NCBI RefSeq assembly: GCF_006345805.1
Contig: NC_043023.1
Coordinates: 14,756,001-14,820,000 of the forward strand
Direction: 5' to 3'
Length of the DNA stretch: 64,000 nt
Source of the DNA: Octopus sinensis
Lineage: Eukaryota
The notes below the pieces were generated by a model. That model searched no databases. It had not been told where the DNA came from and was given only the letters and a program-made list of their open reading frames with translations. Of the stretch, positions 24,429 through 53,689 are shown in pieces (the first letter of the stretch is position 1; every line of letters starts with the position of its first letter). The translations under genes and the position numbers were made by a program.

Positions 24429-25123
24429 TTAGTTATTGTGGGTAGAGAGCACTCAGACCAGCTGGTATCTCTCTTCCACGTTTCAGCAGTCTTGACAAAT
24501 CTCCAGATTTGTCCATCTCCCGAAGACTGAAGCTTTCCTGTAGAGCTGAGTTCCTATTCAGGGAAGCCACTACACGTAGCTTCGGACGTACATCGGACGG
24601 AAAGCCTGGGCGTGTTCGGAAGGTGGTCCGATTTTCCCGCCCAGCTTTAACTGAGGCCAGATGGTAAGAGGTTGCCTCAGTGGGGTCCGTAAAAGACAAC
24701 TTGATGAGCCTAGGTTTTGGGCCAGGTCGTCCAAGGCGGATAGCACCCGTTGGGGGAACGCAGCCTAGGTCTTTGGCTGAGTTGGCAGCAAAAGCCTGAA
24801 GATCAGCCATGTCTTCTGGCACCCCAATGGCAATGACTTCATGGGTGGCAGAATCCGCGGTCTTAAATGCGACAAGAGGTACAGGGAGGTTCTTTAGCAG
24901 AGCATTCCGATAAGACCCCTCATTGTGGAGTCCAACCTGAATGGTTGCTTTTATTCCTGCTACTTCCCCTTTTAAAGCACAGATCGATTGTTGCAGTTCT
25001 GCAAGAACCGCACTGGTCAATTGGTGTTGTTGTTGTTGCTGCTGTTGCTCTGGTTGTGGTTGATTTTGTTGTTGCTGTTGTTGTTGTTTGATGTCGTTGC
25101 TGCTGCTCTGGTTGTGGTTGATT

Positions 25124-25154
<31 letters not shown>

Positions 25155-25158
25155 TCTA
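24401..25158 (-). CDS. LINE ORF1 (coiled-coil plus RLG..KPRLIK motif), polyQ N-terminus, probable indel near 24520
   Basis: LAELQQSICALKGEV coiled coil and IRLGRPGPKPRLIKLSF motif typical of CR1/L2/Jockey-group ORF1. An alternative frame continues GDGQIWRFVK...TQGN* to TAA at 24401-24403. Confidence 0.7.
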
Positions 25159-27558: not shown

Positions 27559-27629
<71 letters not shown>

Positions 27630-27725
27630 GTATACGGCCGACCACATAGTGGCTTGCCCTCCAATATACATATATATATATATATAGCATACGGCCGACC
27701 ACATAGTGGCTTGCCCTCCAAATAT

Positions 27726-27774
<49 letters not shown>

Positions 27775-28380: not shown

Positions 28381-28584
28381 TACCTTTTGACCTACAGATT
28401 TAAAAAATAATTTTTTACATGTGTGCATGTATGTATATGTGTGTATGTATCCTTGTAGAGAGAGAGAGAGAGAGACTACTATAAAATTACAGTGTGTGTG
28501 AAAATCATTTTTTAAGGGAGAGAAATGCTTCAAGATGTGTTTCTGATCTATTCTTCTTTTTCATTGTCTTTAGGGGTCCTTTTC

Positions 28585-28825
28585 CTATGAGTAAAAGAGT
28601 AAACAGTACTTCCAAGTTCCGTAAAATCCATTTATTGGACATGCCCGTAGTTGTAGATCTTCTTCTTCTTGTCTTAAGACAGCATTCACCCAGGGTGGGT
28701 TGAGCTGGCTTCATTCCTCCTCAATGCTGCATCTCTCACAAACGCTGACCAGACCTGGCGATTTGTGGCTAGCGACCACATGATCTCCAACCACTCCCTA
28801 TTCCAGCGGCGAATGCCGTAGATAT
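28585..28825 (-). mobile_element. Left inverted-repeat arm: 3' end of an RTE-clade LINE
   Basis: Minus strand continues in frame from the array: GPHIYGIRRWNREWLEIMWSLATNRQVWSAFVRDAALRRNEASSTHPG*, then (AAG)n and ~70 bp more. Confidence 0.85.
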
Positions 28826-28832
28826 GGGGGCC

Positions 28833-31800
28833 TAGGTTGGGTTCCAAATCAGCCTTGACTGTCATCAGTCAGGTTTTTCATTGTCCACCACAACGCTTTT
28901 GCCAACCCTGAAGGGGAGCTGGGGCAATTGCTTCGTAGGTTGGGTTCCAGATCAGCCTTGACTGTTATCAGCCAGGTTTTTCATTGTCCACCACATCGCT
29001 TTCGCCAACGATGAGAGGGAAGCTGGGGCAATTGCTTCATAGGTTGGGTTCCAGATCAGCCTTGACTGTCATCAGCCAGGTTTTTCGTTGTCCACCACAT
29101 CGCTTTCGCAAACCATGAGAGGGAAGCTGAGGCAATTGCTTCGTAGGTTGGGTTCCAGATAAGCCTTGACTGTCATCAGCCAGGTTTTTCGTTGTCCACC
29201 ACATCACTTTCGCCAACAATGAGAGGGAAGCTGGGACAATTGCTTCGTAGGTTGGGTTCCAGATCAGTCTTGACTGTCATCAGCCAGATTTTTCATTGTC
29301 CACCACATCACTTTCGCCAACAATGAGAGGGAAGCTGGGGCAATTGCTTCGTAGGTTGGGGTCCAGATCAGCCCTGACTGTCATCAGCCAGGTTTTTCGT
29401 TGTCCACCACATCGCTTTCGCCAACAAGGAGAGGGAAGCTGGAGCAATTGCTTCGTAGGTGGGTTCCAGATCAGCCTTGACTGTCATCAGCCAGGTTTTT
29501 CGTTGTCCACCACATCGCTTTCGCCAACCCTGAGAGGGGAGCTGGGGCAATTGCTTCGTAGGTTGGGTTCCAGATAAGCCTTGACTGTCATCAGCCAGGT
29601 TTTTCGTTGTCCAGCACATCACTTTCGCCAGCAATGAGAGGGAAGCTGGGGCAATTGCTTCGTAGGTTGGGTTCCAGATCAGCCTTGACTGTCATCAGCC
29701 AGGTTTTTTGTTGTCCACCACATCGCTTTCGCCAACAATGAGAGGAGAGCTGGGACAATTGCTTCGTAGGTTGGGTTCCAGATCAGCCTTGACTGTCATC
29801 AGCCAGGTTTTTTGTTGTTCACCACATCGCTTTCGGCAACCATGAGAGGGAAGCTGGGGCAATTGCTTCGTAGGTTGGGTTCCAGATCAGCCTTGACTGT
29901 CATCAGCCAGGTTTTTTTTGTCCACCACATCACTTTCGCCAACAATGAGAGGAAGCTGGGGCAATTGCTTCATAGGTTGGGTTCCAGATCAGCCTTGACT
30001 GTCATCAGCCAGGTTTTTCGTTGTCCACCACATCGCTTTCGCCAACCCTGAGAGGGGAGCTGGGGCAATTGCTTCGTAGGTTGGGTTCCAGATCAGCCTT
30101 GACTGTCATCAGCCAGGTTTTTCGTTGTCCACCACATCGCTTTCGCCAACAATGAGAGGGGAGCTGGGGCAATTGCTTCGTAGGTTGGGTTCCAGATCAG
30201 CATTGACTGTCATCAGCCAGTTTTTCGTTGTCCACCACATCGCTTTCGCCAACAATGAGAGGGAAGCTGGGGCAATTGCTTCGTAGGTTGGGTTCCAGAT
30301 CAGCCTTGACTGTCATCAGCCAGGTTTTTCGTTGTCCACCACATCGCTTTCGCCAACCCTGAGAGGGGAGCTGGGGCAATTGCTTCATAGGTTGGGTTCC
30401 AGATCAGCCTTAACTGTCATCAGCCAGGTTTTTCGTTGTCCACCACATCGCTTTCGCCAACCCTGAGAGGGGAGCTGGGGCAATTGCTTCATAGGTTGGG
30501 TTCCAGATCAGCCTTAACTGTCACAGCCAGGTTTTTCGTTGTCCACCACATCGCTTTCGCCAACCCTGAGAGGGGAGCTGGGGCAATTGCTTCATAGGTT
30601 GGGTTCCAGATCAGCCTTAACTGTCATCAGCCAGGTTTTTCGTTGTCCACCACATCGCTTTCGCCAACCATGAGAGGGGAGCTGGGGCAATTGCTTCATA
30701 GGTTGGGTTCCAGATCAGCCTTAACAGTCACAGCCAGGTTTTTCGTTGTCCACCACATCGCTTTCGCCAACCCTGAGAGGGGAGCTGGGGCAATTGCTTC
30801 ATAGGTTGGGTTCCAGATCAGCCTTAACTGTCATCAGCCAGGTTTTTCGTTGTCCACATCGCTTTCGCCAACCCTGAGAGGGGAGCTGGGGCAATTGCTT
30901 CATAGGTTGGGTTCCAGATCAGCCTTAACAGTCACAGCCAGGTTTTTCGTTGTCCACCACATCGCTTTCGCCAACCCTGGGAGGGGAGCTAGGGCAATTG
31001 CTTCATAGGTTGGTTTCCAGATCAGCCTTAACTGTCATCAGCCAGGTTTTTTGTTGTCCACCACATCGCTTTCGCCAACCCTGAGAGGTGAGCTGGGGCA
31101 ATTGCTTCATAGGTTGGGTTCCAGATCAGCCTTAACTGTCATCAGCCAGGTTTTTCGTTGTCCACATTGCTTTCGCCAACCCTGAGAGGTGAGCTGGGGC
31201 AATTGCTTCATAGGTTGGGTTCCAGATCAGCCTTGACTGTCATCAGCCAGGTTTTTCGTTGTCCACCACATCGCTTTCGCCAACAATGAGAGGGAAGCTG
31301 GGGCAATTGCTTCGTAGGTTGGGTTCCAGATCAGCCTTGACTGTCATCAGCCAGGTTTTTCGTTGTCCACCACATCGCTTTCGCCAACAATGAGAGGGAA
31401 GCTGGGGCAATTGCTTCGTAGGTTGGGTTCCAGATCAGCCTTGACTGTCATCAGCCAGGATTTTTGTTTGTCCACACATCGCTTTCGCCAACCATGAGAG
31501 GGGAGCTGGGGCAATTGCTTCGTAGGTTGGGTTCCAGATCAGCCTTGACTGTCATCAGCCAGGTTTTTCGTTGTCCACCACATCGCTTTCGCCAACCCTA
31601 AAGGGGAGCTGGGGCAATTGCTTCATAGGTTGGGTTCCAGATCAGCCTTAACTGTCATCAGCCAGGATTTTCGTTGTCCACCACATCGCTTTCGCCAACC
31701 ATGAGAGGGGAGCTGGGGCAATTGCTTCGTAGGTTGGGTTCCAGATCAGCCTTGACTGTCATCAGCCAGGTTTTTCGTTGTCCACCACATCGCTTTCGCC

Positions 31801-34800
31801 AACGCTGAGAGGGGAGCTGGGGCAATTGCTTCATAGGTTGGGTTCCAGATCAGCCTTAACTGTCATCAGCCAGGATTTTCGTTGTCCACCACATCGCTTT
31901 CGCCAACTCTGAGTAGGGGAGCTGGGGCAATTGCTTCATAGGTTGGGTTCCAGATCAGCCTTAACTGTCACAGCCAGGTTTTTTGTTGTCCACCACATCG
32001 CTTTCGCCAACCCTGAGGGTGAGCTGGGGCAATTGCTTCATAGGTTGGGTTCCAGATCAGCCTTAACTGTCATCAGCCAGCTTTTTTGTTGTCCACCACA
32101 TCACTTTCGCCAACCCTGAGAGGTGAGCTGGGGCAATTGCTTCGTAGGTTGGGTTCCAGATCAGCCTTGACTGTCATCAGCCAGGTTTTTTGTTGTCCAC
32201 CACATCGCTTTCGCCAACAATGAGAGGAGAGCTGGGACAATTGCTTCGTAGGTTGGGTTCCAGATCAGCCTTGACTGTCATCAGCCAGGTTTTTTGTTGT
32301 CCACCACATCACTTTCGCCAACCCTGAGAGGGGAGCTGGGGCAATTGCTTCGTAGGTTGGGTTCCAGATCAGCCTTGACTGTCATCAGCCAGGTTTTTTG
32401 TTGTTCACCACATCGCTTTCGCCAACCATGAGAGGGGAGCTGGGGCAATTGCTTCGTAGGTTGGGTTCCAGATCAGCCTTGACTGTCATCAGCCAGGTTT
32501 TTTGTTGTCCACCACATCACTTTCGCCAACCCTGAGAGGGGAGCTGGGGCAATTGTTGCTTCGTGTTGGGTTCCAGATCAGCCTTGACTGTCATCAGCCA
32601 GGTTTTTCGTTGTCCACATCGCATTCGCCAACCCTGAGAGGGGAGCTGGGGCAATTGCTTCGTAGGTTGGGTTCCAGATCAGCCTTGATTGTCATCAGCC
32701 AGGTTTTTCGTTGTCCACATCGCTTTCGACAACAATGAGAGGAGAGCTGGACAATTGCTTCATAGGTTGGTTCCAGATCAGCCTTGATTGTCATCAGCCA
32801 GGTTTTTTGTTGTTCACCACATCGCTTTCGCCAACCATGAGAGGGAAGCTGGGGCAATTGCTTCGTAGGTTGGGTTCCAGATCAGCCTTGACTGTCATCA
32901 GCCAGGTTTTTTGTTGTGTCCACCACATCTTTCGCAAACCCTGAGAGGGGAGCTGGGGCAATTGCTTCGTAGGTTGGGTTCCAGATCAGCCTTGACTGTC
33001 ATCAGCCAGGTTTTTCGTTGTCTTGTCCACCACATCGCTTTCGCCAACCCTGAAGGGGAGCTGGGGCAATTGCTTCGTAGGTTGGGTTCCAGATCAGCCT
33101 TGACTGTCATCAGCCAGGTTTTTCGTTGTTCACCACATCGCTTTCGCCAACACTGAAGGGGAGCTGGGGCAATTGCTTCGTAGGTTGGGTTCCAGATGAG
33201 CCTTGACTGTCATCAGCCAGGTTTTTCTTGTTTTCACCACATCGCTTTCGCCAACCATGAGAGGGAAGCTGGGGCAATTGCTTCGTAGGTTGGGTTCCAG
33301 ATCAGCCTTGACTGTCATCAGCCAGGTTTTTTGTTGTCCACCACATCGCTTTCGTCAACCATGAGAGGAGAGCTGGGGCAATTGCTTCGTAGGTTGGGTT
33401 CCAGATCAGCCTTGACTGTCATCAGCCAGGTTTTTCGTTGTCCACCACATCGCTTTCGCCAACCCTGAGAGGGGAGCTGGGGCAATTGCTTTGTAGGTTG
33501 GGTTCCAGATCAGCCTTGACTGTCATCAGCCAGGTTTTTTTGTTTTCCACCACATCGCTTTCGCCAACCATGAGAGAGGAGCTGGGGCAATTGCTTCGTA
33601 GGTTGGGTTCCAGAACAACCTTGACTGGCATCAGCCAGGTTTTTTGTTGTCCACCACATCGCTTTCGCCAACCATGAGAGGGAAGCTGGGGCAATTGCTT
33701 CGTAGGTTGGGTTCCAGATCAGCCTTGACTGTCATCAGCCAGTTTTTTTGTTGTCCACCACATCGCTTTCGCCAACCATGAGAAAGGAGCTGGGGCAATT
33801 GCTTCGTAGGTTGGGTTCCAGATCAGCCTTGACTGTCATCAGCCAGGTTTTTTGTTGTCCACCACATCGCTTTCGCCAACCATGAGAGGGGAGCTGGGGC
33901 AATTGCTTCGTTGGTTGGGTTCCAGATCAGCCTTGACTGTCATCAGCCAGGTTTTTTGTTGTCCACCACATCGCTTTCGCCAACAATGACAGGAGAGCTG
34001 GGACAATTGCTTCGTAGGTTGGGTTCCAGATCAGCCTTGACTGTCATCAGCCAGGTTTTTTGTTGTTCACCACATCACTTTCGCCAACCATGAGAGGGAA
34101 GCTGGGGCAATTGCTTCGTAGGTTGGGTTCCAGATCAGCCTTGACTGTCATCAGCCAGGTTTTTTGTTGTCCACCACATCACTTTCGCCAACCCTGAGAG
34201 GGGAGCTGGGGCAATTGCTTCGTAGGTTGGGTTCCAGATCAGCCTTGACTGTCATCAGCCAGGTTTTTCGTTGTCCACATCGCTTTCGCCAACCATGAGA
34301 GGGGAGCTGGGGCAATTGCTTCGTAGGTTGGGTTCCAGATCAGCCTTGACTGTCATCAGCCAGGTTTTTCGTTGTCCACCACATCGCTTTCGCCAACAAT
34401 GAGAGGGAAGCTGGGGCAATTGCTTCGTAGGTTGGGTTCCAGATCAGCCTTGACTGTCATCAGCCAGGTTTTTCGTTGTCCACCACATCGCTTTCGCCAA
34501 CCATGAGAGGGAAGCTGGGGCAATTGCTTCGTAGGTTGGGTTCCAGATCAGCCTTGACTGTCATCAGCCAGGTTTTTTGTTGTCCACCACATCGCTTTCG
34601 CCAACCATGAGAGGGGAGCTGGGGCAATTGCTTGGAAGGTTGGGTTCCAGATCAGCCTTGACTGTCATCAGCCAGGTTTTTCGTTGTTCACCACATCGCT
34701 TTCGCCAACCATGAGAGGGAAGCTGGGGCAATTGCTTCGTAGGTTGGGTTCCAGATCAGCCTTGACTGGCATCAGCCAGGTTTTTTGTTGTCCACCACAT

Positions 34801-37800
34801 CGCTTTCGTCAACCATGAGAGGGGAGCTGGGGCAATTGCTTCGTAGGTTGGGTTCCAGATCAGCCTTGACTGTCATCAGCCAGGTTTTTTGTTGTCCACC
34901 ACATCGCTTTCGCCAACCATGAGAGGGGAGCTGGGGCAATTGCTTCGTAGGTTGGGTTCCAGATCAGCCTTGACTGTCATCAGCCAGGATTTTTGTTGTC
35001 CACCACATCGCTTTCGCCAACCATGAGAGGGGAGCTGGGGCAATTGATTGGAAGGTTGGGTTCCAGATCAGCCTTGACTGTCATCAGCCAGGTTTTTCGT
35101 GTTGTTCATCCCACATCGCTTTCGCCAACCATCAGAGGGAAGCTGGGGCAATTGCTTCGTAGGTTGGGTTCCAGATCAGCCTTGACTGTCATCAGCCAGG
35201 TTTTTCGTGTCACCACATCGCTTCGCCAACCTGCAAGAGGGAAGCTGGGGCAATTGCTTCGTAGGTTGGGTTCCAGATCAGCCTTGACTGTCATCAGCCA
35301 GGTTTTTCGTTGTTCACCACATCGCTTTCGCCAACCATCAGAGGGAAGCTGGGGCAATTGCTTCGTAGGTTGGGTTCCAGATCAGCCTTGACTGTCATCA
35401 GCCAGGTTTTTTGTTGTCCACCACATCGCTTTCGCCATCCTGAGGGGAGCTGGGGCAATTGCTTCAAGGTTGGGTTCCAGATCAGCCTTGACTGTCATCA
35501 GCCAGGTTTTTCGTTGTCCACCACATCGCTTTCGCCAACCCCCCTGATGGGGAGCTGGGGCAATTGCTTCGTAGGTTGGGTTCCAGATCAGCCTTGACTG
35601 TCATCAGCCAGGTTTTTCGTTGTTCACCACATCGCTTTCGCCAACACTGAAGGGGAGCTGGGGCAATTGCTTCGTAGGTTGGGTTCCAGATCAGCCTTGA
35701 CTGTCATCAGCCAGGTTTTTCTTTGTTCACCACATCGCTTTCGCCAACCATGAGAGGGAAGCTGGGGCAATTGCTTCGTAGGTTGGGTTCCAGATCAGCC
35801 TTGACTGTCATCAGCCAGGTTTTTTGTTGTCCACCACATCGCTTTCGCCAACCATGAGAGGGGAGCTGGGGCAATTGCTTCGTAGGTTGGGTTCCAGATC
35901 AGCCTTGACTGTCATCAGCCAGGTTTTTCGTTGTCCACCACATCGCTTTCGCCAACCCTGAGAGGGGAGCTGGGGCAATTGCTTGTAGGTTGGGTTCCAG
36001 ATCAGCCTTGACTGTCATCAGCCAGGTTTTTTGTTTTCCACCACATCGCTTTCGCCAACCATGAGGGGAGCTGGGGCAATTGCTTCGTAGGTTGGGTTCC
36101 AGATCAGCCTTGACTGCATCAGCCAGGTTTTTTGTTGTCCACCACATCGCTTTCGCCAACCATGAGAGGGAAGCTGGGGCAATTGCTTCGTAGGTTGGGT
36201 TCCAGATCAGCCTTGACTGTCATCAGCCAGTTTTTTGTTGTCCACCACATCGCTTTCGCCAACCATGAGAGGGAGCTGGGGCAATTGCTTCGTAGGTGGG
36301 TTCCAGATCAGCCTTGACTGTCATCAGCCAGGTTTTTTTGTTGTCCACCACATCGCTTTCGCCAACCATGAGAGGGGAGCTGGGGCAATTGCTTCGTTGG
36401 TTGGGTTCCAGATCAGCCTTGACTGTCATCAGCCAGGTTTTTTGTTGTCCACCACATCGCTTTCGCCAACAATGACAGGAGAGCTGGGACAATTGCTTCG
36501 TAGGTTGGGTTCCAGATCAGCCTTGACTGTCATCAGCCAGGTTTTTTGTTGTCCACCACATCACTTTCGCCAACCCTGAGAGGGGAGCTGGGGCAATTGC
36601 TTCGTAGGTTGGGTTCCAGTTCAGCCTTGACTGTCATCAGCCAGGTTTTTCGTTGTCCACATCGCTTTCGCCAACCATGAGAGGGGAGCTGGGGCAATTG
36701 CTTCGTAGGTTGGGTTCCAGATCAGCCTTGACTGTCATCAGCCAGGTTTTTCGTTGTCCACCACATCGCTTTCGCCAACACATGAGAGGGAAGCTGGGGC
36801 AATTGCTTCGTAGGTTGGGTTCCAGATCAGCCTTGACTGTCATCAGCCAGGTTTTTCGTTGTCCACCACATCGCTTTCGCCAACCATGAGAGGGAAGCTG
36901 GGGCAATTGCTTCGTAGGTTGGGTTCCAGATCAGCCTTGACTGTCATCAGCCAGGTTTTTCGTTGTCCACCACATCGCTTTCGCCAACCCTGAAGGGGAG
37001 CTGGGGCAATTGCTTCGTAGGTTGGGTTCCAGATCAGCCTTGACTGGCATCAGCCAGGTTTTTCGTTGTTCACCACATCGCTTTCGCCAACCCTGAAGGG
37101 GAGCTGGGGCAATTGCTTCGAAGGTTGGGTTCCAGATCAGCCTTGACTGTCATCAGCCAGGTTTTTCATTGTTCACCACATCGCTTTCGCCAACCATGAG
37201 AGGGGAGCTGGGGCAATTGCTTGGAAGGTTGGGTTCCAGATCAGCCTTGACTGTCATCAGCCAGGATTTTTGTTGTCCACCACATCGCTTTCGCCAACCA
37301 TGAGAGGGGCGCTGGGGCAATTGCTTCGAAGGTTGGGTTCCAGATCAGCCTTGACTGTCATCAGCCAGGTTTTTCGTTGTTCACCACATCGCTTTCGCCA
37401 ACCATGAGAGGGAGACTGGGGCAATTGCTTCGTAGGTTGGGTTCCAGATCAGCCTTGACTGTCATCAGCCAGGTTTTTTGTTGTCCACCACATCGCTTTC
37501 GCCAACCATGAGAGGGGAGCTGGGGCAATTGCTTCGTAGGTTGGGTTCCAGATCAGCCTTGACTGTCATCAGCCAGGTTTTTTGTTGTCCACCACATCGC
37601 TTTCGCCAACAGTGAGAGGAGAGCTGGGACAATTGCTTCGTAGGTTGGGTTCCAGATCAGCCTTGACTGTCATCAGCCAGGTTTTTTGTTGTTCACCACA
37701 TCGCTTTCGCCAACCATGAGAGGGAAGCTGGGGCAATTGCTTCGTAGGTTGGGTTCCAGATCAGCCTTGACTGTCATCAGCCAGGTTTTTCGTTGTCCAC

Positions 37801-40800
37801 ATCGCTTTCGCCAACCCTGAGAGGGGAGCTGGGGCAATTGCTTCGTAGGTTGGGTTCCAGATCAGCCTTGACTGTCATCAGCCAGGTTTTCGTTGTCCAC
37901 CACATCGCTTTCGCCAACCATGAGAGGGGAGCTGGGGCAATTGCTTCGTAGGTTGGGTTCCAGATCAGCCTTGACTGTCATCAGCCAGGTTTTTTGTTGT
38001 CCACCACATCGCTTTCGCCAACAATGAGAGGAGAGCTGGGACAATTGCTTCGTAGGTTGGGTTCCAGATCAGCCTTGACTGTCATCAGCCAGGTTTTTTG
38101 TTGTCCACCACATCGCTTTCGCCAACCCTGAGAGGGGAGCTGGGGCAATTGCTTCGTAGGTTGGGTTCCAGATCAGCCTTGACTGTCATCAGCCAGGTTT
38201 TTTCGTTGTCCACATCGCTTTCGCCAACCATGAGAGGGGAGCTGGGGCAATTGCTTCGTAGGTTGGGTTCCAGATCAGCCTTGACTGTCATCAGCCAGGT
38301 TTTTCGTTGTCCACCACATCGCTTTCGCCAACCATGAGAGGGAAGCTGGGGCAATTGCTTCGTAGGTTGGGTTCCAGATCAGCCTTGACTGTCATCAGCC
38401 AGGTTTTTCGTTGTCCACCACATCGCTTTCGCCAACCATGAAGGGAAGCTGGGGCAATTGCTTCGTAGGTTGGGTTCCAGATCAGCCTTGACTGTCATCA
38501 GCCAGGTTTTTCGTTGTCCACCACCACATCGCTTTCGCCAACCATGAAGGGGAGCTGGGGCAATTGCTTCGTAGGTTGGGTTCCAGATCAGCCTTGACTG
38601 TCATCAGCCAGGTTTTTCGTTGTTCACCACATCGTCTTTCGCCAACCCTGAAGGGGAGCTGGGGCAATTGCTTCGAAGGTTGGGTTCCAGATCAGCCTTG
38701 ACTGTCATCAGCCAGGTTTTTCGTTGTCCACCACATCGCTTTCGCCAACCATGAGAGGGGAGCTGGGGCAATTGCTTCGAAGGTTGGGTTCCAGATCAGC
38801 CTTGACTGTCATCAGCCAGGATTTTTGTTGTCCACCACATCGCTTTCGCCAACCATGAGAGGGGAGCTGGGGCAATTGCTTCGAAGGTTGGGTTCCAGAT
38901 CAGCCTTGACTGTCATCAGCCAGGTTTTTCGTTGTTCACCACATCGCTTTCGCCAACCATGAGAGGGAAGCTGGGGCAATTGCTTCGTAGGTTGGGTTCC
39001 AGATCAGCCTTGACTGTCATCAGCCAGGTTTTTTGTTGTCCACCACATCGCTTTCGCCAACCATGAGAGGGGAGCTGGGGCAATTGCTTCGTAGGTTGGG
39101 TTCCAGATCAGCCTTGACTGTCATCAGCCAGGTTTTTGTTGTCCACCACATCGCTTTCGCCAACCAAGAGAGGAGAGCTGGGACAATTGCTTCATAGGTT
39201 GGGTTCCAGATCAGCCTTGACTGTCATCAGCCAGGTTTTTTGTTGTTCACCACATCGCTTTCGCCAACCATGAGAGGGAAGCTGGGGCAATTGCTTCGTA
39301 GGTTGGGTTCCAGATCAGCCTTGACTGTCATCAGCCAGGTTTTTTGTTGTCCACCACATCACTTTCGCCAACCCTGAGAGGGGAGCTGGGGCAATTGCTT
39401 CGTAGGTTGGGTTCCAGATCAGCCTTGACTGTCATCAGCCAGGTTTTTCGTTGTCCACCACATCGCTTTCGCCAACAATGAGAGGAAGCTGGGGCAATTG
39501 CTTCGTAGGTTGGGTTCCAGATCAGCCTTGACTGTCATCAGCCAGGTTTTTCGTTGTCCACCACATCGCTTTCGCCAACCATGAGAGGGAAGCTGGGGCA
39601 ATTGCTTCGTAGGTTGGGTTCCAGATCAGCCTTGACTGTCATCAGCCAGGTTTTTCGTTGTCCACCACATCGCTTTCGCCATCCTGAAGGGGAGCTGGGG
39701 CAATTGCTTCAAAGGTTGGGTTCCAGATCAGCCTTGACTGTCATCAGCCAGGTTTTTCGTTGTCCACCACATCGCTTTCGCCAACCCTGAAGGGGAGCTG
39801 GGGCAATTGCTTCGTAGGTTGGGTTCCAGATCAGCCTTGACTGTCATCAGCCAGGTTTTTCGTTGTTCACCACATCGCTTTCGCCAACCTGAAGGGGAGC
39901 TGGGGCAATTGCTTCGAAGGTTGGGTTCCAGATCAGCCTTGACTGTCATCAGCCAGGTTTTTTGTTGTCCACCACATCGCTTTCGCCAACCATGAGAGGG
40001 GAGCTGGGGCAATTGCTTCGTAGGTTGGGTTCCAGATCAGCCTTGACTGTCATCAGCCAGGTTTTTTGTTGTCCACCACATCGCTTTCGCCAACCATGAG
40101 AGGGGAGCTGGGGCAATTGCTTCGTAGGTTGGGTTCCAGATCAGCCTTGACTGTCATCAGCCAGGTTTTTTGTTGTCCACCACATCGCTTTCGCCAACCA
40201 TGAGAGGGGAGCTGGGGCAATTGCTTGGAAGGTTGGGTTCCAGATCAGCCTTGACTGTCATCAGCCAGGTTTTTCGTTGTTCACCACATCGCTTTCGCCA
40301 ACCATGAGAGGGAAGCTGGGGCAATTGCTTCGTAGGTTGGGTTCCAGATCAGCCTTGACTGTCATCAGCCAGGTTTTTCGTTGTCCACCACATCGCTTTC
40401 GCCATCCTGAAGGGGAGCTGGGGCAATTGCTTCAAAGGTTGGGTTCCAGATCAGCCTTGACTGTCATCAGCCAGGTTTTTCGTTGTCCACCACATCGCTT
40501 TCGCCAACCCTGAAGGGGAGCTGGGGCAATTGCTTCGTAGGTTGGGTTCCAGATCAGCCTTGACTGTCATCAGCCAGGTTTTTCGTTGTTCACCACATCG
40601 CTTTCGCCAACCCTGAAGGGGAGCTGGGGCAATTGCTTCGAAGGTTGGGTTCCAGATCAGCCTTGACTGTCATCAGCCAGGTTTTTTGTTGTCCACCACA
40701 TCGCTTTCGCCAACCATGAGAGGGAAGCTGGGGCAATTGCTTCGTAGGTTGGGTTCCAGATCAGCCTTGACTGTCATCAGCCAGGTTTTTTGTTGTCCAC

Positions 40801-43800
40801 CACATCGCTTTCGTCAACCATGAGAGGGGAGCTGGGGCAATTGCTTCGTAGGTTGGGTTCCAGATCAGCCTTGACTGTCATCAGCCAGGTTTTTCGTTGT
40901 CCACCACATCGCTTTCGCCAACCCTGAGAGGGGAGCTGGGGCAATTGCTTTGTAGGTTGGGTTCCAGATCAGCCTTGACTGTCATCAGCCAGGTTTTTTT
41001 GTTGTCCACCACATCGCTTTCGCCAACCATGAGAGGGGAGCTGGGGCAATTGCTTCGTAGGTTGGGTTCCAGATCAGCCTTGACTGTCATCAGCCAGGTT
41101 TTTCGTTGTCCACCACATCGCTTTCGCCAACACATGAGAGGAAGCTGGGGCAATTGCTTCGTAGGTTGGGTTCCAGATCAGCCTTGACTGTCATCAGCCA
41201 GGTTTTTTGTTCGTTGTCCACCACATCGCTTTCGCAACCATGAGAGGGAAGCTGGGGCAATTGCTTCGTAGGTTGGGTTCCAGATCAGCCTTGACTGTCA
41301 TCAGCCAGGTTTTTCGTTGTCCACCACATCGCTTTCGCCATCCTGAAGGGGAGCTGGGGCAATTGCTTCAAAGGTTGGGTTCCAGATCAGCCTTGACTGT
41401 CATCAGCCAGGTTTTTCGTTGTCCACCACATCGCTTTCGCCAACCCTGAAGGGGAGCTGGGGCAATTGCTTCGTAGGTTGGGTTCCAGATCAGCCTTGAC
41501 TGTCATCAGCCAGGTTTTTCGTTGTCCACCACATCGCTTTCGCCATCCTGAAGGGGAGCTGGGGCAATTGCTTCAAAGGTTGGGTTCCAGATCAGCCTTG
41601 ACTGTCATCAGCCAGGTTTTTCGTTGTCCACCACATCGCTTTCGCCAACCCTGAAGGGGAGCTGGGGCAATTGCTTCGTAGGTTGGGTTCCAGATCAGCC
41701 TTGACTGTCATCAGCCAGGTTTTTCGTTGTTCACCACATCGCTTTCGCCAACCCTGAAGGGGAGCTGGGGCAATTGCTTCGTAGGTTGGGTTCCAGATCA
41801 GCCTTGACTGGCATCAGCCAGGTTTTTTGTTGTCCACCACATCGCTTTCGTCAACCATGAGAGGGGAGCTGGGGCAATTGCTTCGTAGGTTGGGTTCCAG
41901 ATCAGCCTTGACTGTCATCAGCCAGGTTTTTTGTTGTCCACCACATCGCTTTCGCCAACCATGAGAGGGGAGCTGGGGCAATTGCTTCGTAGGTTGGGTT
42001 CCAGATCAGCCTTGACTGTCATCAGCCAGGTTTTTGTTGTCCACCACATCGCTTTCGCCAACCATGAGAGGGAGCTGGGGCAATTGCTTCGAAGGTTGGG
42101 TTCCAGATCAGCCTTGACTGTCATCAGCCAGGTTTTTCGTTGTTCACCACATCGCTTTCGCCAACCATGAGAGGGAAGCTGGGGCAATTGCTTCGTAGGT
42201 TGGGTTCCAGATCAGCCTTGACTGTCATCAGCCAGGTTTTTCGTTGTTCACCACATCGCTTTCGCCAACCATGAGAGGGAAGCTGGGGCAATTGCTTCGT
42301 AGGTTGGGTTCCAGATCAGCCTTGACTGTCATCAGCCAGGTTTTTCGTTGTCCACCACATCGCTTTCGCCATCCTGAAGGGGAGCTGGGGCAATTGCTTC
42401 AAAGGTTGGGTTCCAGATCAGCCTTGACTGTCATCAGCCAGGTTTTTCGTTGTCCACCACATCGCTTTCGCCAACCCTGAAGGGGAGCTGGGGCAATTGC
42501 TTCGTAGGTTGGGTTCCAGATCAGCCTTGACTGTCATCAGCCAGGTTTTTCGTTGTTCACCACATCGCTTTCGCCAACCCTGAAGGGGAGCTGGGGCAAT
42601 TGCTTCGAAGGTTGGGTTCCAGATCAGCCTTGACTGTCATCAGCCAGGTTTTTCATTGTTCACCACATCGCTTTCGCCAACCATGAGAGGGAAGCTGGGG
42701 CAATTGCTTCGTAGGTTGGGTTCCAGATCAGCCTTGACTGTCATCAGCCAGGTTTTTTGTTGTCCACCACATCGCTTTCGTCAACCATGAGAGGGGAGCT
42801 GGGGCAATTGCTTCGTAGGTTGGGTTCCAGATCAGCCTTGACTGTCATCAGCCAGGTTTTTCGTTGTCCACCACATCGCTTTCGCCAACCCTGAGAGGGG
42901 AGCTGGGGCAATTGCTTCGTAGTAGGTGGGTTCCAGATCAGCCTTGACTGTCATCAGCCAGGTTTTTGTTGTCCACCACATCGCTTTCGCCAACCATGAG
43001 AGGGGAGCTGGGGCAATTGCTTTAGGTTGGGTTCCAGATCAGCCTTGACTGTCATCAGCCAGGTTTTTCGTTGTTCACCACATCGCTTTCGCCAACCATG
43101 AGAGGGAGCTGGGGCAATTGCTTCGTAGGTTGGGTTCCAGATCAGCCTTGACTGTCATCAGCCAGGTTTTTCGTTGTTCACCACATCGCTTTCGCCAACC
43201 ATGAGAGGGAAGCTGGGCAATTGCTTCGTAGGTTGGGTTCCAGATCAGCCTTGACTGTCATCAGCCAGGTTTTTCGTTGTCCACCACATCGCTTTCGCAA
43301 TCCTGAAGGGGAGCTGGGGCAATTGCTTCAAGGTTGGGTTCCAGATCAGCCTTGACTGTCATCAGCCAGGTTTTTCGTTGTCCACCACATCGCTTTCGCC
43401 AACCCTGAGGGGAGCTGGGGCAATTGCTTCGTAGGTTGGGTTCCAGATCAGCCTTGACTGTCATCAGCCAGGTTTTTCGTTGTTCACCACATCGCTTTCG
43501 CCAACCCTGAGGGGAGCTGGGGCAATTGCTTCGAAGGTTGGGTTCCAGATCAGCCTTGACTGTCATCAGCCAGGTTTTTTGTTGTCCACCACATCGCTTT
43601 CGCCAACCATGAGAGGGGAGCTGGGGCAATTGCTTCGTAGGTTGGGTTCCAGATCAGCCTTGACTGTCATCAGCCAGGTTTTTCGTTGTCCACCACATCG
43701 CTTTCGCCAACCCTGAGAGGGGAGCTGGGGCAATTGCTTTGTAGGTTGGGTTCCAGATCAGCCTTGACTGTCATCAGCCAGGTTTTTTTGTTGTCCACCA

Positions 43801-46800
43801 CATCGCTTTCGCCAACCATGAGAGGGGAGCTGGGGCAATTGCTTCGTAGGTTGGGTTCCAGATCAGCCTTGACTGTCATCAGCCAGGTTTTTCGTTGTCC
43901 ACCACATCGCTTTCGCCAACAATGAGAGGGAAGCTGGGGCAATTGCTTCGTAGGTTGGGTTCCAGATCAGCCTTGACTGTCATCAGCCAGGTTTTTCGTT
44001 GTCCACCACATCGCTTTCGCAACCATGAGAGGGAAGCTGGGGCAATTGCTTCGTAGGTTGGGTTCCAGATCAGCCTTGACTGTCATCAGCCAGGTTTTTC
44101 GTTGTCCACCACATCGCTTTCGCCATCCTGAAGGGGAGCTGGGGCAATTGCTTCAAAGGTTGGGTTCCAGATCAGCCTTGACTGTCATCAGCCAGGTTTT
44201 TCGTTGTCCACCACATCGCTTTCGCCAACCCTGAAGGGGAGCTGGGGCAATTGCTTCGTAGGTTGGGTTCCAGATCAGCCTTGACTGTCATCAGCCAGGT
44301 TTTCGTTGTTCACCACATCGCTTTCGCCAACCTGAAGGGGAGCTGGGGCAATTGCTTCGAAGGTTGGGTTCCAGATCAGCCTTGACTGTCATCAGCCAGG
44401 TTTTTCGTTGTTCCACCACATCGCTTTCGCCAACCATGAGAGGGAAGCTGGGGCAATTGCTTCGTAGGTTGGGTTCCAGATCAGCCTTGACTGGCATCAG
44501 CCAGGTTTTTGTTGTCCACCACATCGCTTTCGTCAACCATGAGAGGGGAGCTGGGGCAATTGCTTCGTAGGTGGGTTCCAGATCAGCCTTGACTGTCATC
44601 AGCCAGGTTTTTTGTTGTCCACCACATCGCTTTCGCCAACCATGAGAGGGGAGCTGGGGCAATTGCTTCGTAGGTTGGGTTCCAGATCAGCCTTGACTGT
44701 CATCAGCCAGGATTTTTGTTGTCCACCACATCGCTTTCGCCAACCATGAGAGGGGAGCTGGGGCAATTGCTTCGAAGGTTGGGTTCCAGATCAGCCTTGA
44801 CTGTCATCAGCCAGGTTTTTCGTTGTCCACCACATCGCTTTCGCCAACCATGAGAGGGAAGCTGGGGCAATTGCTTCGTAGGTTGGGTTCCAGATCAGCC
44901 TTGACTGTCATCAGCCAGGTTTTTCGTTGTTCACCACATCGCTTTCGCCAACCATGAGAGGGAAGCTGGGGCAATTGCTTCGTAGGTTGGGTTCCAGATC
45001 AGCCTTGACTGTCATCAGCCAGGTTTTTCGTTGTCCACCACATCGCTTTCGCCATCCTGAAGGGGAGCTGGGGCAATTGCTTCGTAGGTTGGGTTCCAGA
45101 TCAGCCTTGACTGTCATCAGCCAGGTTTTTCGTTGTCCACCACATCGCTTTCGCCAACCTGAAGGGGAGCTGGGGCAATTGCTTCGTAGGTTGGGTTCCA
45201 GATCAGCCTTGACTGTCATCAGCCAGGTTTTTCGTTGTTCACCACATCGCTTTCGCCAACCCTGAAGGGGAGCTGGGGCAATTGCTTCGTAGGTTGGGTT
45301 CCAGATCAGCCTTGACTGTCATCAGCCAGGTTTTCATTGTTCACCACATCGCTTTCGCCAACCATGAGAGGAAGCTGGGGCAATTGCTTCGTAGGTTGGG
45401 TTCCAGATCAGCCTTGACTGTCATCAGCCAGGTTTTTTGTTGTCCACCACATCGCTTTCGCCAACCATGAGAGGGGAGCTGGGGCAATTGCTTCGTAGGT
45501 TGGGTTCCAGATCAGCCTTGACTGTCATCAGCCAGGTTTTTCGTTGTCCACCACATCGCTTTCGCCAACCCTGAGAGGGGAGCTGGGGCAATTGCTTCGT
45601 AGGTTGGGTTCCAGATCAGCCTTGACTGTCATCAGCCAGGTTTTTCGTTGTCCACCACATCGCTTTCGCCAACAATGAGAGGAGAGCTGGGACAATTGCT
45701 TCATAGGTTGGGTTCCAGATCAGCCTTGACTGTCATCAGCCAGGTTTTTTGTTGTTCACCACATCGCTTTCGCCAACCATGAGAGGGAAGCTGGGGCAAT
45801 TGCTTCGTAGGTTGGGTTCCAGATCAGCCTTGACTGTCATCAGCCAGGTTTTTTGTTGTCCACCACATCACTTTCGCCAACCTGAGAGGGGAGCTGGGGC
45901 AATTGCTTCGTAGGTTGGGTTCCAGATCAGCCTTGACTGTCATCAGCCAGGTTTTTCGTTGTCCACCACATCACTTTCGCCAACAATGAGAGGGAAATTG
46001 GGGCAATTGCTTCGTAAGTTGGGTTCCAGATCAGCCTTGACTGTCATCAGCCAGGTTTTTCGTTGTCCACCACATCGCTTTCGCCAACCCTGAGAGGGGA
46101 GCTGGGGCAATTGCTTCGTAGGTTGGGTTCCAGATCAGCCTTGACTGTCATCAGCCAGGTTTTTCGTTGTCCACCACATCGCTTTCGCCAACCCTGAGAG
46201 GGGAGCTGGGGCAATTGCTTCATAGGTTGGGTTCCAGATCAGCCTTGACTGTCATCAGCCAGGTTTTTCGTTGTCCACCACATCGCTTTCGCCAACCCTG
46301 AGAGGGAAGCTGGGGCAATTGCTTCGTAGGTTGGGTTCCAGATCAGCCTTGACTGTCATCAGCCAGGTTTTTCGTTGTCCACCACATCGCTTTCGCCAAC
46401 CATGAGAGGGAAGCTGGGGCAATTGCTTCGTAGGTTGGGTTCCAGATCAGCCTTGACTGTCATCAGCCAGGTTTTTCGTTGTCCACCACATCGCTTTCGC
46501 CAACCCTGAGAGGGGAGCTGGGGCAATTGCTTCGTAGGTTGGGTTCCAGATCAGCCTTGACTGTCATCAGCCAGGTTTTTCGTTGTCCACCACATCGCTT
46601 TCGCCAACCCTGAGAGGGGAGCTGGGGCAATTGCTTCTAGGTTGGGTTCCAGATCAGCCTTGACTGTCATCAGCCAGGTTTTTCGTTGTCCACCACATCA
46701 CTTTCGCCAACAATGAGAGGGAAATTGGGGCAATTGCTTCGTAAGTTGGGTTCCAGATCAGCCTTGACTGTCATCAGCCAGGTTTTTCGTTGTCCACCAC

Positions 46801-49800
46801 ATCACTTTCGCCAACAATGAGAGGGAAGCTGGGGCAATTGCTTCGTAAGTTGGGTTCCAGATCAGCCTTGACTGTCATCAGCCAGGTTTTTCGTTGTCCA
46901 CCACATCGCTTTCGCCAACAATGAGAGGGAAGCTGGGGCAATTGCTTCATAGGTTGGGTTCCAGATCAGCCTTGACTGTCATCAGCCAGGTTTTTCGTTG
47001 TCCACCACATCGCTTTCGCCAACCCTGAGAGGGGAGCTGGGGCAATTGCTTCGTAGGTTGGGTTCCAGATCAGCCTTGACTGTCATCAGCCAGGTTTTTC
47101 GTTGTCCACCACATCGCTTTCGCCAACAATGAGAGGGAAGCTGGGGCAATTGCTTCATAGGTTGGGTTCCAGATCAGCCTTGACTGTCATCAGCCAGGTT
47201 TTTCGTTGTCCACCACATCGCTTTCGCCAACAATGAGAGGGAAGCTGGGGCAATTGCTTCGTAAGTTGGGTTCCAGATCAGCCTTGACTGTCATCAGCCA
47301 GGTTTTTCGTTGTCCACCACATCACTTTCGCCAACAATGAGAGGGAAGCTGGGGCAATTGCTTCGTAGGTTGGGTTCCAGATCAGCCTTGACTGTCATCA
47401 GCCAGGTTTTTCGTTGTCCACCACATCGCTTTCGCCAACCCTGAGAGGGGAGCTGGGGCAATTGCTTCGTAGGTTGGGTTCCAGATCAGCCTTGACTGTC
47501 ATCAGCCAGGTTTTTCGTTGTCCACCACATCGCTTTCGCCAACAATGAGAGGGAAGCTGGGGCAATTGCTTCGTAGGTTGGGTTCCAGATCAGCCTTGAC
47601 TGTCATCAGCCAGGTTTTTCGTTGTCCACCACATCGCTTTCGCCAACCCTGAGAGGGGAGCTGGGGCAATTGCTAGGTTGGGTTCCAGATCAGCCTTGAC
47701 TGTCATCAGCCAGGTTTTTCGTTGTCCACCACATCGCTTTCGCAAAACCTGAGAGGGAAGCTGGGGCAATTGCTTCGTAGGTTGGGTTCCAGATCAGCCT
47801 TGACTGTCATCAGCCAGGTTTTTTGTTGTCACCACATCGCTTTCGCCAACCCTGAGAGGGGAGCTGGGGCAATTGCTTCGTAGGTTGGGTTCCAGATCAG
47901 CCTTGACTGTCATCAGCCAGGTTTTTCGTTGTCCACCACATCGCTTTCGCCAACAATGAGAGGGAAGCTGGGGCAATTGCTTCGTAGGTTGGGTTCCAGA
48001 TCAGCCTTGACTGTCATCAGCCAGGTTTTTCGTTGTCCACCACATCGCTTTCGCCAACAATGAGAGGGAAGCTGGGGCAATTGCTTCATAGGTTGGGTTC
48101 CAGATCAGCCTTGACTGTCATCAGCCAGGTTTTTCGTTGTCCACCACATCGCTTTCGCCAACCCTGAGAGGGAAGCTGGGGCAATTGCTTCATAGGTTGG
48201 GTTCCAGATCAGCCTTGACTGTCATCAGCCAGGTTTTTCGTTGTCCACCACATCACTTTCGCCAACAATGAGAGGGAAGCTGGGGCAATTGCTTCGTAGG
48301 TTGGGTTCCAGATCAGCCTTGACTGTCATCAGCCAGGTTTTTCGTTGTTCACCACATCGCTTTCGCCAACCTGAAGGGGAGCTGGGGCAATTGCTTCATA
48401 GGTTGGGTTCCAGATCAGCCTTGACTGTCATCAGCCAGGTTTTTCGTTGTCCACCACATCGCTTTCGCCAACCATGAGAGGGGAGCTGGGGCAATTGCTT
48501 CATAGGTTGGGTTCCAGATCAGCCTTGACTGTCATCAGCCAGGTTTTTCGTTGTCCACCACATCGCTTTCGCCAACCGAGAGGGGAGCTGGGGCAATTGC
48601 TTCGTAGGTGGGTTCCAGATCAGCCTTGACTGTCATCAGCCAGGTTTTTTGTTGTCCACCACATCGCTTTCGCCTACCCTGAGAGGGGAGCTGGGGCAAT
48701 TGCTTCATAGGTTGGGTTCCAGATCAGCCTTGACTGTCATCAGCCAGGTTTTTCGTTGTCCACCACATCGCTTTCGCCAACCCTGAGAGGGGAGCTGGGG
48801 CAATTGCTTCGTAGGTTGGGTTCCAGATCAGCCTTGACTGTCATCAGCCAGGTTTTTTGTTGTCCACCACATCGCTTTCGCCTACCCTGAGAGGGGAGCT
48901 GGGGCAATTGCTTCGTAGGTTGGGTTCCAGATCAGCCTTGACTGTCATCAGCCAGGTTTTTCGTTGTCCACCACATCGCTTTCGCCAACCCTGAGAGGGG
49001 AGCTGGGGCAATTGCTTCGTAGGTTGGGTTCCAGATCAGCCTTGACTGTCATCAGCCAGGTTTTTTGTTGTCCACCACATCGCTTTCGCCTACCCTGAGA
49101 GGGGAGCTGGGGCAATTGCTTCGTAGGTTGGGTTCCAGATCAGCCTTGACTGTCATCAGCCAGGTTTTTCGTTGTCCACCACATCGCTTTCGCCAACCAT
49201 GAGAGGGAAGCTGGGCAATTGCTTCGTAGGTTGGGTTCCAGATCAGCCTTGACTGTCATCAGCCAGGTTTTTCGTTGTCCACCACATCGCTTTCGCCAAC
49301 CATGAGAGGGTAGCTGGGGCAATTGCTTCCTAGGTTGGGTTCCAGATCAGCCTTGACTGTCATCAGCCTGGTTTTTCGTTGTCCACCACATCGCTTTCGC
49401 CAACCCTGAGAGGGGAGCTGGGGCAATTGCTTCGTAGGTTGGGTTCCAGATCAGCCTTGACTGTCATCAGCCAGGTTTTTCGTTGTCCACCACATCGCTT
49501 TCGCCAACAATGAGAGGGAAGCTGGGGCAATTGCTTCGTAGGTTGGGTTCCAAATCAGCCTTGACTGTCATCAGCCAGGTTTTTCGTTGTCCACCACATC
49601 GCTTTCGCCAACCCTGAGAGGGGAGCTGGGGCAATTGCTTCGTAGGTTGGGTTCCAGATCAGCCTTGACTGTCATCAGCCAGGTTTTTCGTTGTCCACCA
49701 CATCGCTTTCGCCAACCCTGAAGGGGAGGTGGGGCAATTGCTTCGTAGGTTGGGTTCCAGATCAGCCTTGACTGTTATCAGCCAGGTTTTTTGTTGTCCA

Positions 49801-49880
49801 CCACATCGCTTTTGCCAACAATAAGAGGGAAGCTGGGGTAATTGCTTCGTAGGTTGGGTTCCAGATCAGCCTTGACTGTC
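28833..49880. repeat. ~21-kb tandem array, ~200 copies of a 103-104-bp RTE-LINE-derived unit
   Basis: Unit GGTTGGGTTCCAGATCAGCCTTGACTGTCATCAGCCAGGTTTTTCGTTGTCCACCACATCGCTTTCGCCAACCCTGAGAGGGGAGCTGGGGCAATTGCTTCGTA. The minus strand reads YEAIAPAP..GWRKRCGGQRKTWLMTVKADLEPNL. Copy number estimated as length/104. Confidence 0.97.
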
Positions 49881-49882
49881 AA

Positions 49883-50115
49883 ATATCTACGGCATTTGCC
49901 GCTGGAATAGGGAGTGGTTGGAGATCATGCGGTCGTTAGCCTCAAATCGCCAGGTCTGGTCGGTGTTTGTGAGAGATGCAGCATTGAGGATGAATGAAGC
50001 CAGTTCAACCCACCCCGGGTGAATACTGTAAGAAGAAGAAGATCTACAACTACAGGAATGTCCAATAAATGGATTTTATGGAACTAGGAAGCACTGTTTA
50101 CTCTTTTACTCATAG
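49883..50115 (+). mobile_element. Right inverted-repeat arm: same RTE 3' end in opposite orientation
   Basis: Reverse complement of 28585-28825; about 15 substitutions and one 8-bp indel by manual alignment. Confidence 0.9.
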
Positions 50116-50335
50116 TTATAGATGGCGCTATATAAATTAAGAACTTGAAATTAGTTGGTCTGTATCTTTCTTTTATCTTTTATTTGTTTCAGTCATTTGA
50201 CTGTGGCCATGCTGGAGCACCACCTTTAGTTGAACAAATCAACCCTAGGACTTATTCTTTGTAAGCCTAGTAATTATTCTATCGGTTGTCAAGTGATGTT
50301 GGGGGGGACAAACACAGACACACAAACATATACAT

Positions 50336-53419: not shown

Positions 53420-53689
53420 TATTTTCCTCCTCTCACCATACTACACAGATATTTTTCTTCTGAACCATTACCATATATTTCGTTTTTGGATTTGGTTTGC
53501 AAGATTCTTTATATGAGTTCGTGTGTTGAAGCATATTCTGTTGTGTCTGGAGAGAGTCATTTTCTTTTTGTGCCTTATTATGTAACACACTCACTGGTAA
53601 AATTTCCACATTTTTCTTATTTTTATTGTCCTAAAATTTTTTGTTGCACCTTGCAACCTTTCAATAGTTATAAATATATACATATATAA

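What the first reader, a model, noticed from the sequence alone, without database searches (positions are those of the whole stretch)
28826..49880. Satellite monomer is an exact slice of RTE reverse-transcriptase coding sequence, born at an ACCTA microhomology
Seen: the minus strand of the 103-bp variant (CCCTGAAGGGG) reads in one frame YEAIAPAPLQGWRKRCGGQRKTWLMTVKADLEPNL and runs straight into GPHIYGIRRWN in the left arm. Unit junctions read CCCAACCTA-CGAAGC whereas the exit reads CCCAACCTA-GGCCCC. Both array edges retain the in-frame 103-bp form and share rare variants (CCAAATC, ACTGTTATC, CGCTTTTGCC). Inference: (A)CCTA homology nucleated the first duplication, the edges are ancestral and the centre was homogenised. 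This would be a LINE-to-satellite birth caught with its parent still attached.
Basis: partly seen in the sequence, partly recalled or inferred. Interest (0 to 1): 0.75.

Follow-up and report, generated by a model that had tools for sequence, protein, structure and literature searches.

The report
Satellite grown inside one retrotransposon insertion
A 21-kb tandem repeat is built from a 103-base slice of a LINE retrotransposon's coding tail and sits, with an inverted copy of the element's end, between what look like the two insertion scars of a single copy, so one garbled insertion probably seeded the whole array.

Summary
The array is real: 203 units plus a 32-nt stub at 28833-49881, and the unit is an exact slice of an RTE-like LINE ORF. 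(1) The slice is the ORF's C-terminal tail, about 130 residues past the RT domain. (2) Parent copies in four organisms read ATCTA, not ACCTA, at the unit boundary, so the exact microhomology is 3 nt (CTA). (3) The 103-bp form is parental but mostly interior (31 of 33), and the three edge-shared variants are real but derived. The parent's upstream part is missing here. In its place is a 233-nt inverted copy of the element's 3' end, tail and 74 nt of target flank. An 11-bp near-perfect direct repeat (10/11; null 0.3%) abuts the tail on the left and the inverted copy's end on the right, as an RTE target-site duplication would. Best reading (0.55): in one target-primed insertion the cDNA jumped back 103 nt, stalled, snapped back on itself and joined the far end. 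That left a 1.3-unit seed, which later grew from the centre. LINE-derived satellites and snap-back junctions are each known; I did not find the combination in my searches.

The parts
28585..28658 (+). Target-site flank (non-RTE, 74 nt) that is copied in inverted form at 50043-50115
   Evidence: one contig joins the unique left flank to this stretch in each of three organisms (table 8)
28648..28658 (+). Left copy of candidate 11-bp target-site duplication, abutting the tail
28659..28685 (-). Very short 3' UTR and (AAG)n microsatellite tail of the LINE
   Evidence: family contigs end at 28667-28679 with unrelated flanks in all four runs (table 7)
28686..28832 (-). Last 48 codons and stop of the LINE ORF (GPHIYG...HPG*), the still-attached parent 3' end
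28833..49881 (-). Tandem array: 203 units of 103/104 bp plus a 32-nt stub; unit = ORF slice YEAI...PNL
28833..28935 (-). Unit 0: 103-bp form, two TGA stops, five changes from the parent-like state
36915..37017 (-). Unit 78: the only unit identical to the parent-like state
49850..49881 (-). Terminal 32-nt stub (unit positions 1-32), where the antisense strand stops
49872..49882 (+). Inversion junction on the near-palindrome TTGACTGTCAA; 29 nt (28826-28854) are missing from the inverted copy
49883..50115 (+). Inverted arm: LINE 3' end, tail and 74 nt of left target flank; 15 substitutions in 232 aligned pairs and one 8-nt indel against the left copy
50113..50123 (+). Right copy of candidate target-site duplication (10 of 11 identical); its first 3 nt (TAG) are also the last 3 nt of the inverted arm

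Best explanation
One garbled target-primed insertion of an RTE-like LINE made the seed, and ordinary tandem-repeat turnover then made the array. The + strand is the first-strand cDNA. Step 1: priming at 28658, copying the tail, the last 48 codons and the 103-nt unit (anatomy shown). Step 2: the cDNA end, reading TAG, re-paired with CUA 103 nt nearer the RNA 3' end and copying resumed, giving the first tandem junction (3-nt microhomology shown; timing inferred). Step 3: synthesis stopped 32 nt later at a near-palindrome, the cDNA primed on itself, and DNA-templated synthesis ran back through the 3' end, the tail and 74 nt of target flank, skipping 29 nt at the start (product shown; mechanism inferred). 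Step 4: the new end, again TAG, paired with the tip of the far target overhang, closing an 11-bp duplication (shown as a 10/11 repeat; inferred to be the TSD). Step 5: the 1.3-unit seed, a 32-35-nt direct repeat at 103-nt spacing, grew by unequal exchange or slippage. A +1 G variant (104 bp) took over, and later expansions were central and pushed older units outward (layering shown; mechanism inferred). The array has no sign of function.
For: Unit is the C-terminal tail of single-ORF endonuclease/RT proteins. Parent continuation at 28938 seen in 26, 25, 26 and 22 contigs of the 2073, 1618, 1278 and 1161 laid, with the same first 19 letters in all four runs; by my hand translation it reads Q-P-G-E-F-I before Y. 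This matches homologues: I at that position in 30 of 65 anchored hits, T in 2. The 11-bp repeat abuts the tail and the arm end; 634 of 200,000 random junction pairs give as good a match. RTE TSDs are 6-12 bp (PMC2887409). All segments lie 5' to 3' on the + strand in the order of first-strand synthesis. The stop point is one of 3 of 96 unit positions with at least 8/9 self-complement. Arm-to-arm divergence is 6.5%, close to the 13 differences in 221 nt of organism C's contig, which also reaches into the tail, so arm and insertion are of similar age. Precedents: R2 snap-back and template jumps (PMC11371274); L1 fold-back inverted duplications of 52-220 bp in 4 events (PMC10191854); microhomology of 2 bp or more at truncated 5' junctions (PMC11702581). 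Outer blocks correlate with each other (+0.22) and not with the centre (-0.31, -0.39); 0 of 2000 shuffles as high.
Against: The TSD has one mismatch, was noticed after the fact, and no empty site was seen; the metagenome scan found 0. One contig of organism D leaves the flank at 28655 with other letters. The snap-back needs a second, 29-nt skip with no microhomology, and the junction region folds no better than shuffles (z 0.49). Three switches in one event is a lot; snap-back into flank is rare in the cited data (4 events, about 0.4%). Only run X1 shows a second contig over the outer arm; X3 and X7 show one each (contigs show presence, not absence). At 28634 organism C and that X1 contig have T where both window arms have A, which fits a later arm duplication better. 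No listed contig bridges a unit-to-unit junction (table 8 was cut), so the array is not confirmed outside this assembly, and other loci carrying the junction are not excluded.
Confidence: 0.55

Rival explanations
1. Stepwise DNA-level history, close to the first reader's. A longer RTE copy inserted normally. Slippage or unequal exchange at the CTA (ATCTA/ACCTA, 4 of 5) microhomology made the first duplication. A later break in the array was repaired by fold-back, which replaced the upstream RTE part with the inverted arm.
For: 3-nt exact and 4/5 near microhomology. Palindrome at the junction. Site 28634 and the single contig over the outer arm in organisms B and C fit a younger arm. Long arrays are break-prone (established knowledge).
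Against: The later repair would have to end exactly at the first bases of the old TSD. Arm divergence of 6.5% is about that between organisms A and C, and C's left flank carries three right-arm states (28608, 28614, 28621), so the arm is old.
Confidence: 0.24
2. The duplication arose earlier in a source copy elsewhere. An RNA that already carried two or more units (a non-autonomous element with an internal VNTR) was inserted here, and the snap-back and TSD belong to that insertion.
For: Both arms share three states that differ from the family majority (28780, 28798, 28814), pointing to a particular source copy. No whole genome is held to exclude other arrays.
Against: No evidence of a second locus. 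The supported loose ends at the unit boundary all show the plain parent continuation (413 rows not shown).
Confidence: 0.12
3. A fold-back or MITE-like DNA transposon with about 240-bp terminal inverted repeats, built from a captured RTE end and carrying an internal array (Tetris-like), inserted here.
For: Overall layout of inverted arms around a tandem array resembles Tetris (PMC4079207 abstract).
Against: No direct repeat flanks the outer ends of both arms; the 11-bp repeat lies inside the left arm, next to the tail. The outer arm is covered by only 1-2 contigs per run, against hundreds for the RTE part. Contigs join the arm to the same unique flank in three organisms.
Confidence: 0.06
4. 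Assembly artefact: the array length, or the inverted arm, comes from long-read misassembly.
For: Scattered private indels (units of 99-108 bp) look like read errors. No listed contig bridges the array junction.
Against: The arms differ at 15 sites, many of them family or organism-C states, which an assembler would not invent. Variants are spatially layered. Unit count may still be off.
Confidence: 0.03

Closest known systems
LINE ORF2-derived satellites: PROsat (Phodopus, L1 ORF2), chicken HinfI repeat (CR1 ORF2 and 3' UTR), common cetacean satellite (L1 3' end); passages of PMC9659126
   Same: A tandem repeat whose monomer comes from the 3' part of a LINE.
   Different: In the passages seen these are similarities to part of a monomer. 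Here the whole monomer is the slice, it is still in frame with the element's 3' end, and the array lies inside one apparent TSD. The review has no whole-word occurrence of 'RTE'.
5'-truncated RTE-clade insertions (PMC2887409 passages)
   Same: C-terminal ORF piece, very short 3' UTR, trinucleotide tail, TSD of 6-12 bp.
   Different: Internal unit amplified about 200-fold, and an inverted copy of the 3' end plus flank at the 5' junction.
Snap-back and template-jump junctions of R2 (PMC11371274 passages); fold-back inverted duplications at L1 insertions (PMC10191854 section 11; PMC11702581 passages)
   Same: cDNA end primes on cDNA or nearby target DNA before joining; inverted duplications of tens to about 200 bp; short microhomology at the join.
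   Different: Those are engineered or somatic events in human cells without later tandem growth. Whether their geometry equals this one could not be judged without the figures.
Tetris fold-back transposon and TIR-220 satellite of Drosophila virilis (PMC4079207 abstract)
   Same: Inverted arms with an internal repeat that grew into kb-size arrays.
   Different: Tetris is a mobile DNA transposon family with repeats inside its TIRs. Here the arms are a local duplication of an RTE end and its own flank.
Layered expansion of alpha-satellite arrays (PMC9549924 passages)
   Same: Semi-symmetric layers, most uniform in the middle, divergent at the edges.
   Different: 21 kb, no sign of centromere function, and only weak block duplications (best scores 4.2 and 4.0 against a shuffled maximum of 3).

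Membership tests
RTE-clade non-LTR retrotransposon (parent) | Single ORF of about 1000 aa with AP endonuclease and RT | tested here: met
   On homologues only: P0026 is 1024 aa with Exo_endo_phos and RVT_1; many 1000-1050-aa relatives lie on 3-4 kb contigs. The parent's own full ORF was not recovered.
RTE-clade non-LTR retrotransposon (parent) | Extremely short 3' UTR with simple-repeat tail | tested here: met
   Stop at 28686-28688, family ends at 28667-28679, AAG repeats.
RTE-clade non-LTR retrotransposon (parent) | No C-terminal cysteine-histidine knuckle (feature recalled; a zinc finger is called relatively rare in RTEs in PMC9115989) | tested here: met
   No CxxC in the last 250 aa of P0026, P0083 or P0062.
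RTE-clade non-LTR retrotransposon (parent) | TSD of 6-12 bp | tested here: inconclusive
   11-bp repeat, 10/11, null 0.3%; no empty site seen.
RTE-clade non-LTR retrotransposon (parent) | RT domain groups with RTE-1, JAM1, Bov-B or SR2 in a tree | not tested
   No hit carried an RTE name; no labelled references were at hand.
Reverse-transcriptase domain (Pfam RVT_1) | Monomer lies within the RT domain | tested here: not met
   Peptide aligns to 947-1014 of P0026; RVT_1 is 567-815. No Pfam hit for the peptide.
Satellite DNA derived from a transposable element | Long head-to-tail array with monomer homologous to a TE | tested here: met
Satellite DNA derived from a transposable element | Family spread over heterochromatin or several loci | not testable with these tools
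   No genome held.
Fold-back / MITE DNA transposon | TSD outside both terminal inverted repeats | tested here: not met
   Flanks outside the arm ends do not match; the only repeat found lies inside the left arm.
Fold-back / MITE DNA transposon | Termini dispersed in many copies | tested here: not met
   1-2 contigs per run cover 28583-28620; contig evidence only, so weak.
Twin-primed (5'-inverted) LINE insertion | Inverted piece comes from RNA upstream of the forward piece, with no duplicated tail or flank (recalled definition) | tested here: not met
   The inverted piece repeats the same 3' end, tail and target flank.

The most novel reading that the evidence does not exclude
A single reverse-transcription event wrote both the tandem seed and the inverted arm, so a 21-kb satellite was born from an RT template jump rather than from later DNA recombination, and all four birth junctions can still be read between the target-site duplications. 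If so, template jumps during LINE insertion are a general, countable source of new satellites, and such arrays should often be bracketed by TSDs.
Probability: 0.45. Interest if true: 0.72.

Novelty: new variant of a known kind. Interest (0 to 1): 0.52.

Why it matters
How the first duplication of a satellite arises is rarely observable, because the parent and the junctions are usually erased. Here the parent family is abundant, the junctions are intact, and related organisms carry the same flank. The order of events (insertion, first duplication, inversion, growth) can therefore be tested directly by comparing orthologous loci. It also warns that a microhomology read from the array alone is circular: the letters before the unit come from the previous unit, and the real parent shares only 3 nt.

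Tried and rejected
No whole genome is held, so no parent consensus or second-locus search on the assembly was possible. The word-indexed protein search found nothing among 13 candidates; the exhaustive search found 229 at E up to 0.001. Its top hit P0001 (15 stretches) is an unrelated 115-aa repeat whose weak scores add up, and was rejected. The Pfam scan of the peptide gave only FlaF at E 0.11. No other copy of the parent or arm lies in the rest of the window. Metagenome scans gave 0 hits for the target-site motif and 1 hit for a unit motif, a chance 23-nt match in unrelated DNA. The first unit segmentation missed anchors and was redone (replaced by 19). The monomer tree has 14 of 129 inner branches starred; position labels cluster (43 changes against a shuffled mean of 66.8, 0 of 200 as low), but it cannot order the units. 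Folding gave no unusual structure (z -0.99, 0.49, -1.04). Earlier-finding look-ups were empty. A circular-intermediate route (PMC3510499, abstract only) was considered; nothing here favours it. In one search, 84 of 149 hits lacked the anchoring motif and were dropped before counting.

Full report
Setting. The window is AT-rich animal DNA full of microsatellites, with a 27-finger C2H2 ORF to the right of the array. From recalled SINE sequence it looks like an octopus; no call names the organism. No whole genome is held.

The observation. Walking the array gives 203 full units and a 32-nt stub between 28833 and 49881, 96.8% identical to their consensus on average; 118 are 104 bp and 40 are 103 bp. 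On the minus strand the 103-bp form reads YEAIAPAPLQGWRKRCGGQRKTWLMTVKADLEPNL, exactly so in 7 interior units. The frame continues from unit 0 into GPHIYGIRRWN and on to a stop at 28686, but unit 0 itself has two TGA stops. The three rare variants each occur twice, once in units 0-1 and once in units 200-202. Independent mutation reproduced three shared changes in at most 886 of 100,000 trials, so the sharing is real. The 103-bp form, however, is in 33 units, 31 of them interior and most in the centre.

What the unit is. An exhaustive search found 229 proteins at E up to 0.001. The top hit is an unrelated repeat protein and was discarded. Among the rest, the peptide aligns to residues 947-1014 of a 1024-aa ORF with endonuclease at 46-288 and RT at 567-815, and 39 of 92 relatives of that ORF match it too. 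The unit is thus the C-terminal tail, not the RT domain. A single ORF, a very short 3' UTR and a trinucleotide tail fit the RTE clade as described in PMC2887409 (passages). No hit carried an RTE label and no RT tree was built, so 'RTE-like' is the safe name.

The microhomology test. Contigs of four runs from four organisms were laid on 28450-29000 (4 of 24 runs listed). Between 1161 and 2073 contigs per run were laid, so the parent family is abundant. In each run 22-26 contigs match up to 28938 and then leave with the same first 19 letters, starting ATGAATTCTCC on the + strand. On the sense strand this reads ATCTA before CGAAGC and, by my translation, Q-P-G-E-F-I-Y-E-A. Homologues agree: the residue before Y is I in 30 of 65 anchored hits and T, which ACCTA would need, in 2. 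The parent therefore shares CTA exactly, and 4 of 5 letters of ACCTA. The ACCTA seen at unit junctions is simply the end of the previous unit. A private change in the founding copy cannot be excluded. The same call shows that the edge variants are derived: the family has G at 28847, C at 28900 and C at 28966 in 90-99% of depth. No inserted G near 28911 is listed, so 103 bp is the parental length. One exception is 28880, where the array-consensus G holds only 20-27% of family depth. Only unit 78 equals the parent-like state; unit 201 differs by 1, unit 0 by 5 and unit 202 by 9.

What lies at the other end. No upstream parent sequence is present. After the stub, 49883-50115 is an inverted copy of 28585-28825: the ORF end, the tail and 74 nt beyond the tail, with 15 substitutions in 232 pairs and one 8-nt indel. 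The family's 3' end lies at 28667-28679, where contigs run into unrelated flanks, so those 74 nt are target DNA. The switch falls on TTGACTGTCAA, one of 3 of 96 unit positions with at least 8 of 9 self-complementary letters, and 29 nt are missing from the copy. TAGTTGTAGAT (28648-28658) abuts the tail, and TAGTTATAGAT (50113-50123) begins on the last three letters of the inverted arm. 634 of 200,000 random junction pairs from the rest of the window give such a match. RTE duplications are 6-12 bp.

Mechanism. Read 5' to 3' on the + strand, the pieces come in the order of first-strand synthesis: target primer, tail, ORF end, unit, jump back at TAG, stub, snap-back, copy of the cDNA and flank, join at TAG to the far overhang. 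The stub matters: positions 33-103 exist only if copying passed them before the stop at position 32, so in a one-event history the tandem junction precedes the inversion. Each step has a precedent. R2 proteins jump templates and their cDNA ends prime on cDNA or nearby target DNA (PMC11371274, passages). L1 insertions show fold-back inverted duplications of about 52-220 bp in 4 events (PMC10191854, section 11) and microhomology at truncated 5' junctions (PMC11702581, passages). Timing fits: organism C's contig joins the left flank to the tail with 13 differences in 221 nt and carries right-arm states at 28608, 28614 and 28621, about the same divergence as between the arms.

Against this reading: one TSD mismatch, no empty site, a 29-nt skip without microhomology, only one contig over the outer arm in organisms B and C, and site 28634, where C and one contig of run X1 have T while both window arms have A. 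I give the single-event model 0.55, a stepwise DNA-level history 0.24, a pre-duplicated source copy 0.12, a fold-back transposon 0.06 and artefact 0.03.

Growth of the array. In blocks of ten units, the outer left and outer right correlate (+0.22) and each anticorrelates with the centre (-0.31, -0.39); 0 of 2000 shuffles reached the first value. Rare substitutions fall from 1.8 per unit in the first ten units to 0-0.2 in units 80-189. The tree is poorly resolved, but position labels cluster on it. This is the semi-symmetric layering described for alpha satellite (PMC9549924, passages). The edges are the oldest, least homogenised units, not the most parent-like.

Known versus new. Satellites from LINE ORF2 or 3' ends are on record (PMC9659126, passages), as are arrays grown inside fold-back transposons (PMC4079207, abstract). 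RTE elements with microsatellite tails are described from octopus (PMC9115989, passages); I did not compare their sequences. Eight searches showed no title or abstract start describing a multi-kb array inside one TSD-bounded LINE insertion with a snap-back arm; most subscription journals are outside that library, and no supplements were read. Interest 0.52.

Noticed in passing
window 21831-25155 (-): A second, nearly intact LINE: an 865-aa open frame with endonuclease and RT domains, preceded by a 240-aa frame without Pfam hit, possibly ORF1. It is a different family from the array's parent.
   Followed up: partly
window 50888-53440 (-): 850-aa open frame with 27 C2H2 zinc fingers, ending about 770 bp from the right arm; a useful anchor for finding the orthologous locus.
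   Followed up: partly
window 683-2027 and 58494-59398: Tandem arrays of a 169-190-bp unit that I recall as an abundant cephalopod SINE (8 and 5 copies): further TE-derived tandem repeats in the same window.
   Followed up: no
window 28712: In three runs, 5-8 contigs leave the arm here with a common continuation, indicating a second LINE subfamily that shares only the last codons and 3' end; proteins P0003 and P0009 end in a matching way.
   Followed up: no
window 28621-28658: The target flank next to the tail is covered at several to tens of times single-copy depth, so the insertion landed in or beside another low-copy repeat; its other copies could reveal the empty site.
   Followed up: partly
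window 28880: Family depth favours the letter that makes a TGA stop (G only 20-27%), unlike the array consensus; may reflect a high-copy non-autonomous subfamily. Unexplained.
   Followed up: no
window 7325-8791: 30-bp minisatellite of about 48 copies with 60- and 90-bp higher periods.
   Followed up: no
window 27607-27728: Two copies of a 57-bp unit 900 bp left of the insertion.
   Followed up: no
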